Source of the DNA: Candidatus Hydrogenedens sp. | Lineage (GTDB): Bacteria > Hydrogenedentota > Hydrogenedentia > Hydrogenedentales > Hydrogenedentaceae | Direction of reading: 5' to 3' | NCBI GenBank assembly: GCA_049968235.1 | Contig: JBMFRC010000047.1 | Coordinates: forward strand, 1 to 780 | Length of the DNA stretch: 780 bases | Translations under genes and position numbers: made by a program | Notes under the pieces: generated by a model | Databases searched by the model: none | Seen by the model: the letters and a program-made list of their open reading frames with translations, nothing else | What the model was told of the DNA's origin: nothing | Shown: positions 1 through 780 of the stretch, piece after piece | How the letters are laid out: every line of letters starts with the position of its first letter | Numbering within the stretch: the stretch's first letter is position 1

Positions 1-109
1 TTAATTCATTAATAGCATTTGTTTTAATCATTCTATTACAATGTTTATCAACAATATTTGCAATCTTAGTTTCAAATTTTTTACCTTTGTTTTTGTTATA
101 ATTTGACAT
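1..109 (-). CDS. Gene A: 5' end (N-terminal 36 aa) of a minus-strand CDS running off the left edge. Hand translation: MSNYNKNKGKKFETKIANIVDKHCNRMIKTNAINEL... Hypothetical protein, possibly the N-terminal helix of a RecU/Hjc/YraN-like PD-(D/E)xK nuclease.
   Basis: The reverse complement of 1-109 reads ATG TCA AAT TAT AAC AAA AAC AAA GGT AAA AAA TTT GAA ... with no stop through to the window edge. The ATG (complement of 107-109) is the first ATG after an in-frame stop (complement of 122-124). Codon position 1 is about 83% purine (30 of 36), which is coding-like. The overlapping plus-strand frame is F/I/L-rich with about 36% purine at position 1, the typical shadow of a K/N-rich gene. The motif N-K-G-x-x-F-E-x-x-I-x-x-x-x-x-K-H echoes the N-terminal 'N-R-G-x-x-L-E..L' of RecU, 'K-G-x-x-x-E-R-E-L..L-E-K-H-G-F' of Hjc and 'G-E-x-L-A-x-x-Y-L' of YraN, but only 36 aa are visible and the catalytic core is outside the window. 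The fragment was probably missed by the ORF track because of a length cutoff. Confidence 0.4.
   Translation of the reverse strand, partial: MSNYNKNKGKKFETKIANIVDKHCNRMIKTNAINEL
94..102 (+). promoter_or_regulatory. Candidate extended -10 promoter element TGTTATAAT (TGnTATAAT consensus) for gene B, with a weak -35-like TTCAAA at 71-76 (20-bp spacer, suboptimal). Predicted TSS is about 109-111, inside the palindrome, giving a leader of about 13-15 nt.
   Basis: Exact match to the extended -10 consensus, read from the sequence. Its position relative to the gene B ATG (124) is appropriate. Caveat: TATAAT-like strings arise frequently by chance in DNA of about 20% GC. Confidence 0.3.
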
Positions 110-126
110 AACTAACGTTAGTTATG
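107..126. promoter_or_regulatory. Perfect 20-bp palindrome CATAACTAACGTTAGTTATG (central ACGT, containing AACGTT). Its two ends are the divergent start codons of gene A (CAT on plus = ATG on minus) and gene B (ATG). Candidate operator for a dimeric DNA-binding protein and/or an 8-bp-stem, 4-nt-loop RNA hairpin that sequesters either start codon.
   Basis: Read directly from the sequence: 107-116 CATAACTAAC is the exact reverse complement of 117-126 GTTAGTTATG. It is the entire intergenic space between the two divergent ORFs plus both start codons. It lies 5 bp downstream of the TGTTATAAT extended -10 at 94-102, where a TSS or operator would sit. Confidence 0.5.
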
Positions 127-540
127 ATGAATGTAATTTTAAATATAATAACAAGAAATATATTAAACAAAGTTTTTATTATGTTTGGTATAATGAGTAT
201 TTCATTAATTGGATTAGGTATATATTCTTACAAATATTATAAATTAAAAACTGAAAATCAAATATTACAAGCACAAGTTAATTCTCTACAACAAAATTAT
301 AACATGTGCAAATTAGATCTTGAAAATGTAACTAATGAATACAACAAATTACAAAATTTACATAACAAAAAACTAAAGAATTGCTATACTACAGTAAAAC
401 AAACTCAAGACAAATGCTTAAAAGAATATTATAATAAAACAATTAAAGATTTAAACTTAAAACCTGAAGATTTGCAAAAAAAACAAATAGAACAATCTGA
501 TGATCAGCTTTTAAACCAGTTAAATAATCTATTCAATTAA
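124..540 (+). CDS. Gene B: complete 138-aa small bitopic membrane protein. It has a short N-terminal tail (1-18), one TM helix (about 19-36, IMFGIMSISLIGLGIYSY), a K-rich juxtamembrane stretch KYYKLK, a roughly 5-heptad amphipathic coiled coil (about 44-85), a Cys-containing linker (C62, C87, C98) and a C-terminal helix (about 105-137). No Trp. It could be an i-spanin(Rz)-like, FtsB/DivIC-like or other membrane-anchored coiled-coil protein, and the family is not assigned.
   Basis: This is the ORF-track ORF. An open frame of 138 codons is very unlikely by chance in 20% GC DNA, where stop codons occur at roughly 0.1 per codon. Codon position 1 is strongly purine-biased. Hydrophobic residues recur with 3,4 spacing at L48, V52, L55, Y59, C62, L66, V69, Y73, L76, H80/L79 and L84, the a/d pattern of a coiled coil. 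There is no lipobox and no signal-peptidase motif. No SD (GGAGG-like) is seen upstream of ATG 124. In-frame alternative starts exist at 127, 181 and 193; 181 would start the protein directly at the TM helix. Confidence 0.7.
   Translation: MMNVILNIITRNILNKVFIMFGIMSISLIGLGIYSYKYYKLKTENQILQAQVNSLQQNYNMCKLDLENVTNEYNKLQNLHNKKLKNCYTTVKQTQDKCLKEYYNKTIKDLNLKPEDLQKKQIEQSDDQLLNQLNNLFN
142..170 (-). promoter_or_regulatory. Possible sigma70-like promoter for gene A on the minus strand: -35 TTGTTT (complement of 165-170), a 17-bp spacer, and -10 TATATT (complement of 142-147). The predicted TSS near 134-135 would give a leader of about 25 nt containing the palindrome.
   Basis: Hexamers and spacing were read by hand from the reverse complement of 110-180. 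The -10 matches TATAAT at 5 of 6 positions, and the -35 matches TTGACA at 3 of 6. It lies inside the 5' coding region of gene B, as expected for tightly packed divergent genes. It is weak evidence because such matches are common in AT-rich DNA. Confidence 0.2.
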
Positions 541-551
541 TTTTTTTGTTG

Positions 552-780
552 CTACATATAGTATATCACATTTACAATTGGTTCATCTCTTTCTATTATA
601 ACAACCTTTTCTGTAACTATACCTACATTATTAACTTCTGTTATTGATACTTTTTTGCCATTATATGCTTGTTGCTTATTACGTATATAGTTTTTAGTTA
701 AAAATGGATATTGCCCTTCTTTTGCAAATTTAATAAAAGTAGCATTAACTACTTCAATATCATTAGTATCTACTTTTTGT
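552..780 (-). CDS. Gene C: 3' end (C-terminal 75 aa plus stop) of a minus-strand CDS entering from the right edge. Hand translation: ...QKVDTNDIEVVNATFIKFAKEGQYPFLTKNYIRNKQQAYNGKKVSITEVNNVGIVTEKVVIIERDEPIVNVIYYM*. Hypothetical protein, family not recognised.
   Basis: The reverse complement of 552-779 is open for 75 codons and ends at TAG (complement of 552-554). The first codon positions are purine-rich. No competing plus-strand ORF is reported for 541-780. The fragment is truncated by the window, so it was probably below the ORF-track length cutoff. Gene C's stop lies only 11 bp from the gene B stop, a convergent arrangement. Confidence 0.55.
   Translation of the reverse strand, partial: QKVDTNDIEVVNATFIKFAKEGQYPFLTKNYIRNKQQAYNGKKVSITEVNNVGIVTEKVVIIERDEPIVNVIYYM

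What the first reader, a model, noticed from the sequence alone, without database searches (positions are those of the whole stretch)
107..126. Perfect 20-bp palindrome whose two ends are the divergent start codons of genes A and B
CATAACTAACGTTAGTTATG is a flawless inverted repeat of 10+10 bp with an ACGT core. By symmetry it places an ATG on each strand, and each ATG is the first one after an in-frame stop on its strand, so the two divergent ORFs start mirror-symmetrically with only 14 bp between them. Perfect palindromes of this length are classic binding sites for dimeric regulators such as HTH repressors, RM-system C-proteins or TA-antitoxin-type autorepressors. Sitting at or over the predicted TSS of gene B, it would act as a roadblock or operator for both divergent transcripts. 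If transcribed whole, it also folds into an 8-bp-stem, 4-nt-loop hairpin (two G-C pairs, the rest A-U, so weak) that buries whichever start codon is on that mRNA. Either way it suggests coordinated, possibly mutually exclusive, control of the nuclease-like gene A and the membrane protein gene B.
Basis: seen in the sequence. Interest (0 to 1): 0.6.

Follow-up and report, generated by a model that had tools for sequence, protein, structure and literature searches.

The report
Palindrome joining two divergent phage gene starts
A perfect 20-base palindrome spans the start codons of two back-to-back genes on a fragment of an uncultured giant-type phage; it is most likely two mirror-image gene-start signals squeezed on top of each other, and nothing found here shows it is a docking site for a regulator.

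Summary
CATAACTAACGTTAGTTATG (107-126) is a perfect 10+10 palindrome, and its ends are the start codons of gene A (minus strand, PD-(D/E)XK nuclease) and gene B (plus strand, membrane/coiled-coil, spanin-like).

The window is a phage fragment filed under a bacterial MAG. Related contigs carry split multisubunit RNA-polymerase genes distantly like those of AR9-type jumbo phages.

- no second copy in about 26 kb of the phage, or as an exact 18-mer in the assemblies searched;
- no recognisable regulator among ten neighbouring genes;
- the only sister lineage keeps the divergent A/B pair but has a 29-nt spacer with no palindrome.

Perfect 20-bp palindromes also occur inside ORFs of related phages.

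This phage group has start-anchored signals. TAAATTA-N6-ATG occurs in 17 of 79 genes. An AAC box starts 10-12 nt before the ATG in 30 of 59 others. Shine-Dalgarno sequences appear only in genes lacking both.

A and B both carry AAC in the commonest position. With a 14-nt spacer the two boxes abut as AAC|GTT, so six of the ten palindromic pairs follow from shared start signals.

Verdict: a real, modestly unusual feature, probably two interleaved bidirectional start modules. An operator is not excluded.

The parts
107..126 (.). Perfect 10+10 palindrome CA-TAAC-TAAC|GTTA-GTTA-TG
   Evidence: Identical in 7 other assemblies of the same phage.
1..109 (-). Gene A, N-terminal 36 codons (start codon = CAT 107-109). 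It is a PD-(D/E)XK nuclease of family PDDEXK_15, 153 aa in relatives, and runs off the left end of the window.
124..540 (+). Gene B, 138 aa: N-terminal hydrophobic segment plus coiled coil with three invariant Cys. Weak match to Rz-like i-spanins.
114..116 (+). AAC box of gene B at -10..-8 from its ATG. This is the commonest position of the class-2 start signal.
117..119 (-). AAC box of gene A (GTT on the + strand) at -10..-8 from its ATG. It abuts the box of B, giving the AAC|GTT core.
110..112 (+). Second AAC, at -14..-12 of gene B. It is the complement of positions -3..-1 of gene A. This part of the symmetry is not explained by the commonest box position.
121..123 (-). Second AAC, at -14..-12 of gene A (GTT on the + strand).
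541..552 (+). Gene-end signal of B: T7 run directly after the TAA stop, then GTTGC. It marks B as a monocistronic unit.
552..780 (-). Gene C, C-terminal part (191 aa in relatives; stop = CTA 552-554). It is convergent with B and has no T-run after its stop on the minus strand.
94..102 (+). TGTTATAAT, a perfect extended -10 of the sigma-70 type, inside gene A codons 3-5. It would place a host-type transcription start at about 109-110. Considered, but not favoured.
   Evidence: Not reported by the two-hexamer scan. The corresponding codons differ in sister lineage L009.

Best explanation
The palindrome is where two mirror-image gene-start modules overlap. The genes are divergent and monocistronic, probably late-expressed, and belong to an uncultured phage that encodes its own multisubunit RNA polymerase.

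In this phage group most genes lack a Shine-Dalgarno sequence and instead carry a signal at a fixed distance from the ATG. One class is TAAATTA-N6-ATG. The other is an AAC box starting 10-12 nt before the ATG. The AAC box has the geometry of the AR9 late promoter, A(-11)ACA-N6-T-A/G(+1), if transcription starts at or next to the A of ATG; the mRNAs would then be leaderless or nearly so.

Genes A and B each have AAC-N7-ATG. Their ATGs are only 14 nt apart, so the two boxes abut on opposite strands as AAC|GTT. Together with CAT/ATG this fixes 6 of the 10 symmetric pairs.

The other four pairs form the outer TAAC/GTTA repeat. They are most likely fortuitous, or a quasi-palindrome made perfect by template switching.

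Consequences, all inferred:
- the two initiation regions interleave on the same 20 bp, so a given template can fire only one direction at a time;
- the hairpin is not part of the normal mRNAs;
- no dedicated dimeric regulator is needed.

Shown: the motif statistics, the geometry and the absence of conservation. Inferred: that the AAC box is a promoter element, where transcription starts, and mutual exclusion.
For: Phage identity. Relatives of the window carry PF00623 and PF00562 RNAP fragments. The beta-like protein is about 24% identical to beta subunits of Staphylococcus S6/PALS_2, Yersinia YerA41 and Listeria LPJP1 phages, with Bacillus phage records among the 36 hits.

Class 1 signal. Exact TAAATTA lies exactly 6 nt before the ATG in 17 of 79 genes. 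The heptamer occurs 23 times in upstream 30-mers against 0.84 expected. Further fixed positions are GCA at -23..-21 and a T-run at -29..-25.

Class 2 signal. AAC starts at -12, -11 and -10 in 8, 10 and 12 genes, which is 30 of 59 genes, against about 1.6 per position elsewhere. A and B are both at -10.

Shine-Dalgarno. GGAG-type sequences occur in only 3 genes, all lacking both signals. Two overlap the preceding gene. The third has a 120-nt upstream spacer in which TAAATTA lies about 30 nt before the ATG.

Start calls. The called start is the first in-frame ATG in 75 of 80 genes, so the motifs are not an artefact of start-site choice.

Monocistronic units. T>=6 runs follow 45 of 79 stop codons, against 0.5% of coding windows. 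One follows B (window 541-547) and one follows A in L002.

Orthologues. The AAC box is kept in the B orthologue of L009 (-12) and the A orthologue of L012 (-10).

Literature. The AR9 late consensus is AACA-(6N)-TA/G. [quoted passage not shown]
Against: - No transcription start is mapped. The AAC box could be a non-SD translation signal rather than a promoter element.
- Known jumbo phages have real leaders: AR9 26-491 nt, phiKZ mostly 31-40 nt with no leaderless transcript found.
- With exact AR9 spacing, the -10 position would put the start at the T of ATG, so the geometry must differ by one nucleotide.
- The base after AAC is G here, not the A of the AR9 consensus.
- The model does not make the full palindrome much more probable. 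P(both genes at the -10 position) is about 0.04, roughly the same as three chance complementary pairs, and four further pairs (p about 0.013) remain unexplained.
- Other short divergent spacers with two AAC boxes (L012, 22 and 25 nt) are not long palindromes.
- The A orthologue in L009 lacks an AAC box at -12..-10.
Confidence: 0.45

Rival explanations
1. Operator. A dimeric DNA-binding protein of the phage or the host binds the 20-bp palindrome and represses or times both divergent genes together.
For: Perfect dyad symmetry over 20 bp, with conditional chance of about 5e-4 for the 14-nt spacer. It is invariant in 8 assemblies, and positions 107-142 show no polymorphism. Nearly all neighbouring proteins are ORFans, so an unrecognised regulator could be among them.
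Against: Single copy, with no exact or degenerate sites in other intergenic regions. The exact 18-mer is not found elsewhere in assemblies that hold this phage. No HTH, RHH or similar hit in ten neighbours. It is absent from the only sister lineage, which keeps the same gene pair. The invariance is not significant given 94-95% overall identity (P of no variable site in 20 nt is about 0.2). Equally perfect palindromes sit inside ORFs of related phages.
Confidence: 0.25
2. Fortuitous or mutational palindrome with no link to initiation signals. A 14-nt spacer happened to be, or was made by intrastrand template switching at a quasi-palindrome, self-complementary. The CAT/ATG ends add three pairs for free.
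For: The window-level probability is only about 0.01, and the empirical rate of 10+10 palindromes in related DNA is about 1 per 30 kb, two of the three being in ORFs. The 18-mer core recurs about 20 times in unrelated metagenome contigs, about the chance number. There is no conservation beyond one species-level lineage. The internal TAAC-TAAC/GTTA-GTTA repeat is the kind of structure that slippage or template switching produces (established knowledge of quasi-palindrome mutagenesis; not tested here).
Against: Exact centring between two start codons has a conditional p of about 5e-4. The core coincides with the strongly position-specific AAC box on both strands.
Confidence: 0.17
3. RNA-level control. 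Transcripts that begin inside the partner gene, or read through from gene C into A, carry the whole palindrome. The 8-bp hairpin then buries the AUG, and only transcripts that start within the palindrome are translated. This resembles the hairpin control recalled for T4 lysozyme gene e and endonuclease VII gene 49.
For: The hairpin is predicted at -5.9 kcal/mol and dominates the ensemble (frequency 0.83). It persists in longer contexts for the A-side RNA (z = -2.4 to -2.8). These genes have no SD, so start-codon accessibility should matter. Gene C has no T-run after its stop on the minus strand, so read-through towards A is conceivable.
Against: The stem is weak and AU-rich. In longer B-side contexts the fold is not better than shuffles (z = -1.3 to -1.6). 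The sister lineage has no comparable hairpin. The start-anchored motifs argue that the main transcripts exclude the 5' arm. The T4 precedent is recalled from memory and was not checked here.
Confidence: 0.1
4. Structural DNA site. The AT-rich palindrome extrudes as a cruciform and is bound or cut by the junction-specific nuclease encoded by gene A itself, giving autoregulation or a recombination or processing site.
For: Gene A belongs to a phage PD-(D/E)XK family and gives weak matches to PHROGs annotated as Holliday-junction resolvases. The DNA hairpin arm is predicted at -3.9 kcal/mol.
Against: Purely speculative: there is no conservation and no repeat of the site elsewhere.
Confidence: 0.03

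Closest known systems
Late promoters of the non-virion RNA polymerase of jumbo phage AR9: A(-11)ACA-(6N)-T-A/G(+1), recognised on the template strand (PMC5312081, PMC7598289, PMC5449584)
   Same: A minimal AAC(A) box lies about 10 nt upstream of the presumed start point. T precedes A at the start in about 60% of the AAC-box genes listed. The genome context has split beta/beta' genes distantly homologous to the AR9 group. The genes involved, a nuclease and a lysis-type protein, are typical late functions.
   Different: Here the box is anchored to the ATG, implying leaderless or 1-2-nt leaders, whereas AR9 leaders are 26-491 nt. The commonest position is one nucleotide closer than in AR9. The fourth base is A in only half the cases and is G in A and B. 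Uracil DNA and template-strand recognition are unknown here, and no transcription start is mapped.
Palindromic operators of dimeric repressors in divergent control regions (lambda-type cI/cro regions, RM C-boxes, TA antitoxin operators)
   Same: Dyad symmetry of operator-like length, located between divergent genes and overlapping both initiation regions.
   Different: No cognate regulator, no second site, no conservation in the sister lineage and no RM or TA gene context. The symmetry includes the start codons themselves.
Overlapping (interleaved) divergent promoters with mutually exclusive polymerase binding
   Same: Two initiation regions occupy the same about 20 bp on opposite strands.
   Different: The known cases use sigma-70 promoters with separate -10/-35 elements and ordinary leaders. 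Here the elements are 3-nt boxes, probably for a phage polymerase, and the coding regions are only 14 nt apart.
Hairpin sequestration of translation starts in T4 late genes e and 49 (recalled from memory, not checked here)
   Same: A lysis-related gene and a junction-resolvase-like gene each have a start codon inside a potential hairpin.
   Different: There is no evidence here for the long, translationally silent transcripts that the T4 mechanism needs. The stem is weaker, and one palindrome would serve both strands.

Membership tests
Operator of a dimeric transcription regulator | Inverted repeat of operator length in a promoter region | tested here: met
   Perfect 10+10 palindrome between divergent starts.
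Operator of a dimeric transcription regulator | Cognate DNA-binding protein encoded nearby | tested here: not met
   Ten neighbouring proteins give no DNA-binding family in Pfam or PHROGs at E<=0.01. ORFans could hide one.
Operator of a dimeric transcription regulator | Further sites (regulon or multiple operators) | tested here: not met
   No exact or half-site copy in intergenic DNA of about 26 kb. Matches with <=4 mismatches are at chance level and in coding DNA. The exact 18-mer is found only at this locus in assemblies holding the phage. The rest of the genome was not available.
Operator of a dimeric transcription regulator | Conservation of the site, or of its symmetry, in related genomes | tested here: not met
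   Kept only within one lineage of 94-95% identity, which is uninformative. Absent in sister lineage L009, which has the same gene pair.
Operator of a dimeric transcription regulator | Sequence-specific protein binding | not testable with these tools
   Needs EMSA or footprinting.
RM-system C-protein operator (C-box) | Adjacent C gene with restriction and methylase genes; C-box consensus | tested here: not met
   The flanking genes are a PDDEXK_15 nuclease and a spanin-like membrane protein within a phage RNAP gene neighbourhood. No methylase or HTH is present. The GACT/AGTC-type C-box is recalled from memory and is not present in the sequence.
Toxin-antitoxin autorepressor operator | Operator upstream of a co-directional small antitoxin-toxin operon | tested here: not met
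   A and B are divergent and monocistronic, each followed by a T-run gene-end signal.
AR9-type late promoter of a phage multisubunit RNAP | AACA box about 11 nt upstream of the start point | tested here: inconclusive
   AAC lies at -10..-8 from each ATG and is followed by G. AAC is strongly position-enriched in 30 of 59 genes. The offset differs by one nucleotide from AR9.
AR9-type late promoter of a phage multisubunit RNAP | T(-1) A/G(+1) at the transcription start | tested here: inconclusive
   TA is present as T123/A124, and symmetrically on the minus strand. No transcription start data exist.
AR9-type late promoter of a phage multisubunit RNAP | Phage-encoded split beta/beta' polymerase in the same genome | tested here: met
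   PF00623 and PF00562 genes lie within 5 kb in L001 and L002. About 24% identity to jumbo-phage beta subunits.
AR9-type late promoter of a phage multisubunit RNAP | Initiation by the phage polymerase at this site | not testable with these tools
   Needs 5'-end mapping or in vitro transcription.
Intrinsic terminator or known structured RNA | G+C-rich stem followed by a U-run, or an Rfam family match | tested here: not met
   No terminator-like site in the window. No Rfam match to the window at E<=1.

The most novel reading that the evidence does not exclude
The 20-bp palindrome is a single symmetric bidirectional initiator. It holds two interleaved promoters, each recognised on the template strand by a phage-encoded multisubunit RNA polymerase, and each fires a leaderless mRNA starting at its own ATG. 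The nuclease and the spanin-like gene are then expressed in a mutually exclusive, one-template-one-direction manner. This would be part of a genome-wide grammar, not described for known jumbo phages, of ATG-anchored promoters and hairpin-less T-run gene ends.
Probability: 0.2. Interest if true: 0.6.

Novelty: new variant of a known kind. Interest (0 to 1): 0.3.

Why it matters
The palindrome on its own matters little. It is one site in one uncultured phage lineage, and its symmetry may be largely a packing consequence.

What it led to is more useful. An uncultured, very AT-rich clade of RNA-polymerase-encoding phages appears to use three kinds of gene signal:
- gene-start signals anchored to the ATG (TAAATTA-N6-ATG, and AAC at -10..-12);
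- a Shine-Dalgarno sequence only in the three genes that lack both start signals;
- T-run gene ends with no G+C-rich hairpin evident.

If confirmed, this would extend AR9-type minimal promoters to leaderless expression. It would also give a sequence-only way to split such genomes into temporal gene classes.

The A/B junction would be the tightest test case for how two such promoters share 20 bp.

Tried and rejected
- DNA similarity of the whole window to 50,697 phage records: no match.
- The 20-mer in IMG/VR: none.
- Exact look-up of protein B: failed, although an identical protein (P0003) is listed on a 780-nt NCBI contig.
- Wider search for B relatives, with a single sequence and with a profile: only the window lineage and L009 exist in 5.8 billion proteins. 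None in IMG/VR.
- A relatives L012 and L015 have different upstream neighbours, so they cannot test the junction.
- L008, L038 (archaeal MAG) and L039 (a phage with ordinary SD sites) are too distant to be informative.
- tblastn of protein A against phage records: no match.
- Rfam on the window: nothing. tRNA scan of the related loci L001, L002, L009, L012 and L015: none.
- Sigma-70 and terminator scan: promoter-like sites at shuffle level, none at the palindrome, and no terminators.
- Unrelated 18-mer hits L027 and L031 looked like operator arrays. They turned out to sit inside a long inverted repeat, about 130 nt in L031, in unrelated contigs. This was dropped as irrelevant.
- k-mer enrichment: the half-site words (TAACTAA, ACGTTAG and others) are not enriched upstream of other genes once A and B are discounted.
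- TAACGTTA as a variant of the class-1 TAAATTA element: rejected, because both the length and the spacing to the ATG are wrong (3 nt instead of 6).
- phiKZ-type TATG initiator: considered, since both arms end in TATG. It would start the RNA at the G and destroy A's start codon, so it was rejected for A. It remains conceivable for B's second ATG (127-129).
- Polymorphism test for constraint on the palindrome: no power.

Full report
**1. What is there**

Bases 107-126 are CATAACTAACGTTAGTTATG. This is a perfect self-complementary 20-mer, and its symmetry stops exactly at its ends.

- ATG 124-126 opens a 138-aa ORF on the plus strand (gene B, 124-540).
- CAT 107-109 is the ATG of a minus-strand ORF that leaves the window on the left (gene A).
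- On both strands an in-frame TAA lies four codons upstream, with no alternative start in between.
- Read in fours, the palindrome is CA-TAAC-TAAC|GTTA-GTTA-TG.

**2. Is it more than chance?**

- In 20,000 dinucleotide-preserving shuffles of this 21.7% G+C window, a perfect arm of at least 10 appears in 1.0%.
- Two divergent start codons are complementary by definition. The real coincidence is therefore a palindromic 14-nt spacer, at about 5e-4.
- Against this, about 91 kb of related phage DNA holds three independent 10+10 palindromes where 0.63 are expected, and two of them lie inside ORFs.
- The 18-nt core turns up about 20 times in unrelated metagenome contigs, roughly the chance number.

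The feature is unusual for one window. It is not beyond what a large scan would throw up.

**3. Where the window comes from**

- Protein B is identical to NCBI MGC8739803.1, which sits on a 780-nt contig filed under a Candidatus Hydrogenedens MAG.
- Seven other assemblies carry the same region at 94-95% nucleotide identity, on contigs up to 44.8 kb.
- Those contigs are densely packed with ORFans. They include split RNA-polymerase genes (PF00623, PF00562) whose beta-like product is about 24% identical to beta subunits of Staphylococcus S6/PALS_2, Yersinia YerA41 and Listeria LPJP1 phages, with Bacillus phage records among the hits.
- The window is therefore a mis-binned fragment of an uncultured, very AT-rich phage that encodes its own RNA polymerase.
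- Gene A is a PDDEXK_15 phage nuclease, with weak matches to PHROGs annotated as Holliday-junction resolvases.
- Gene B has an N-terminal hydrophobic segment, a coiled coil and three invariant cysteines. It gives a weak Rz-like spanin match.

**4.

- *Other copies.* None in IMG/VR. In the metagenome collection, only the same locus of the same phage. In the about 26 kb of this phage that could be read, the half-site TAACGTTA and the arm words occur only in coding DNA. Matches to the 16-nt core with up to four mismatches are at chance level.
- *Regulator nearby.* Ten neighbouring proteins give no DNA-binding family.
- *Conservation.* All eight strains keep the site, but the flanks are just as conserved: 59 variable columns in 780, so a 20-nt stretch has no variable site with P of about 0.2. 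Only one sister lineage exists in 5.8 billion proteins. It has A at 74% and B at 42% identity and keeps the divergent pair, but its spacer is 29 nt, unalignable, and has no palindrome or hairpin.

All three refutation criteria are met as far as the data reach.

**5. What the surroundings show**

I tabulated 79 genes from five related contigs (L001, L002, L009, L012, L015). They reveal a strict signal grammar.

- *Gene ends.* 45 of 79 stop codons are followed within 25 nt by a run of at least six T, and 25 of those runs begin directly after the stop. In 31 of the 45, GC follows within 3 nt of the run. Only 0.5% of coding windows have such a run. Convergent pairs share two-sided versions such as TAATTTTTTTTGCAAAAAAATTA, and only 4 of 17 divergent spacers have a T or A run of six or more.
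- *Start class 1.* The exact heptamer TAAATTA lies exactly 6 nt before the ATG in 17 genes. It occurs 23 times in upstream 30-mers against 0.84 expected. Further fixed positions are GCA at -23..-21 and a pyrimidine at -1.
- *Start class 2.* Among the other 59 genes, the trinucleotide AAC starts at -12, -11 or -10 in 8, 10 and 12 genes. Elsewhere it averages about 1.6 per position.
- *Shine-Dalgarno.* GGAG-type sequences occur in only three genes, none of which has either signal. Two overlap the preceding gene. The third has a 120-nt upstream spacer in which TAAATTA lies about 30 nt before the ATG.
- *Start calls.* The called start is the first in-frame ATG in 75 of 80 genes, so these patterns are not gene-caller artefacts.

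Literature comparison:

- AR9 late promoters are A(-11)ACA-(6N)-T-A/G(+1) (PMC7598289, PMC5312081).
- The two classes here fit those descriptions if transcription starts at or next to the A of ATG, giving leaderless or nearly leaderless mRNAs.
- That differs from AR9 (leaders 26-491 nt) and phiKZ (31-40 nt, no leaderless transcript).

That the AAC box is a promoter element, rather than a non-SD translation signal, is an inference by analogy.

**6. Reading the palindrome in that light**

- A and B both lack TAAATTA and SD. Both have AAC at -10..-8, the commonest position, and each is followed by a T-run gene end, so each is its own unit.
- With ATGs 14 nt apart, B's box (114-116) and A's box (117-119, GTT on the plus strand) abut, which produces the AAC|GTT core.
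- Start codons plus boxes account for six of the ten symmetric pairs.
- The outer TAAC/GTTA repeat gives each gene a second AAC at -14 and TT at -2/-1. It accounts for the other four pairs (chance about 0.013).

A limit must be stated. The model gives the core a meaning but does not make the whole palindrome much more likely. Two genes sharing the -10 position has P of about 0.04, about the same as three chance pairs.

Other short divergent spacers with two AAC boxes (22 and 25 nt in L012) are not long palindromes. Only the 14-nt spacing makes the modules interleave.

Inferred consequences: initiation in the two directions competes for the same 20 bp, and normal transcripts would not contain the full hairpin.

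**7. Weighing the explanations**

| Explanation | Confidence |
|---|---|
| Interleaved mirror-image start modules, with the residual symmetry unselected | about 0.45 |
| Genuine operator for an unrecognised dimeric factor (perfect symmetry and ORFan neighbours keep it alive) | about 0.25 |
| Chance or template-switch palindrome unrelated to initiation | about 0.17 |
| RNA hairpin acting on read-through or upstream-initiated transcripts | about 0.10 |
| Cruciform recognised by gene A's nuclease | about 0.03 |

For the hairpin model, gene C has no T-run on its strand, so read-through into A is conceivable.

**8. Verdict**

The site is best filed as a new variant of known kinds, namely overlapping divergent promoters and AR9-type minimal late promoters. 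Interest is low to moderate. The more valuable by-product is the start- and end-signal grammar of this uncultured phage clade.

Noticed in passing
whole window (1-780): The window is an entire 780-nt contig. Its protein B is identical to NCBI MGC8739803.1, labelled 'MAG: Candidatus Hydrogenedens sp.'. Its relatives lie on phage-like contigs with split RNA-polymerase genes, so the contig is probably a phage fragment mis-binned into a bacterial MAG.
   Followed up: partly
L001, L002, L009, L012, L015 (e.g. L002 12140-12165; L001 10226-10251): Exact TAAATTA lies exactly 6 nt before the ATG in 17 of 79 genes, across four lineages. GCA is fixed at -23..-21, a T-run at -29..-25 and a pyrimidine at -1. 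This looks like an early-type promoter placed for leaderless mRNAs.
   Followed up: partly
same loci; window 114-116 (+) and 117-119 (-): The trinucleotide AAC starts at -12, -11 or -10 from the ATG in 30 of the 59 genes without TAAATTA, against about 1.6 per position elsewhere. The geometry resembles the AR9 late promoter AACA-N6-TA/G.
   Followed up: partly
window 541-552; L009 14889-14905 and 17672-17687; L012 6263-6280: Gene-end signal: a run of six or more T follows 45 of 79 stop codons within 25 nt, and 25 of these runs begin directly at the stop. GC follows within 3 nt in 31 of the 45. Convergent genes share two-sided TTTTTTTTGCAAAAAAA. No G+C-rich hairpin is evident, which suggests T-run termination by the phage polymerase.
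   Followed up: partly
L012 4503 and 5417; L002 8164-8382: Canonical Shine-Dalgarno sequences (AGGAGG, GGAGGG) occur in only three genes, all lacking both start signals. Two overlap the preceding gene. The third has a 120-nt upstream spacer in which TAAATTA lies about 30 nt before the ATG. The host therefore appears to read SD, and the SD-less genes probably use leaderless initiation.
   Followed up: partly
window 1-142 versus 143-780: Among eight strains, only 4 variable columns fall in 1-142 and 55 in the remaining 638. Positions 107-142 are invariant. The A N-terminus, the spacer and the B N-terminus are the most conserved part of the window.
   Followed up: no
window 94-102: TGTTATAAT, a perfect extended -10 of the sigma-70 type, lies inside gene A. 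It would start a host-type transcript at about 109-110. It is encoded by the Asn-Tyr-Asn codons of A, and the corresponding codons differ in the sister lineage.
   Followed up: partly
L015 4499-4518; L008 6084-6103: There are two other perfect 10+10 palindromes, TTTCTTCGATATCGAAGAAA and AGATAGAAAATTTTCTATCT, both inside ORFs. Related loci hold 3 such palindromes against 0.63 expected, a mild general excess of long perfect palindromes.
   Followed up: partly
L031 8357-8492; L027 175-245: In two unrelated contigs (30% and 41% G+C) the same 18-mer, ATAACTAACGTTAGTTAT, is surrounded by further AACGTTAGTTA-like repeats. In L031 these lie inside a long inverted repeat of about 130 nt, next to an asparagine-synthase-like ORF. 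This is an unidentified repeat element with no Rfam family.
   Followed up: partly
L026 1477-1570: The 18-mer sits at the centre of a much longer perfect palindrome at a contig end (...GAATGTTATGCACAAGA|ATAACTAACGTTAGTTAT|TCTTGTGCATAACATTC...). This may be an assembly fold-back artefact or a hairpin end.
   Followed up: no
L002 1-4697: Four tandem genes of about 486-515 aa lie here. At least two share near-identical internal sequence, so they appear paralogous. The three with readable upstream regions have near-identical ones (T-run-GC...AACAAC...AAATT-ATG).
   Followed up: no
protein P0002 (L007 494-910): JGI names a 91%-identical copy of protein B 'predicted nuclease with TOPRIM domain'. Nothing found here supports that: B is a membrane-anchored coiled-coil protein with a weak spanin match and no TOPRIM or other nuclease-family match.
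   Followed up: partly
L002 11013-11051 (orthologous to L001 6069-6107): The next divergent pair (gene C and its neighbour) also has mirror-image start contexts, CATATTG...CAATATG, with an AAC box at -11 on both sides. The C orthologue in L009 also keeps AAC at -11 and CCAATATG.
   Followed up: no
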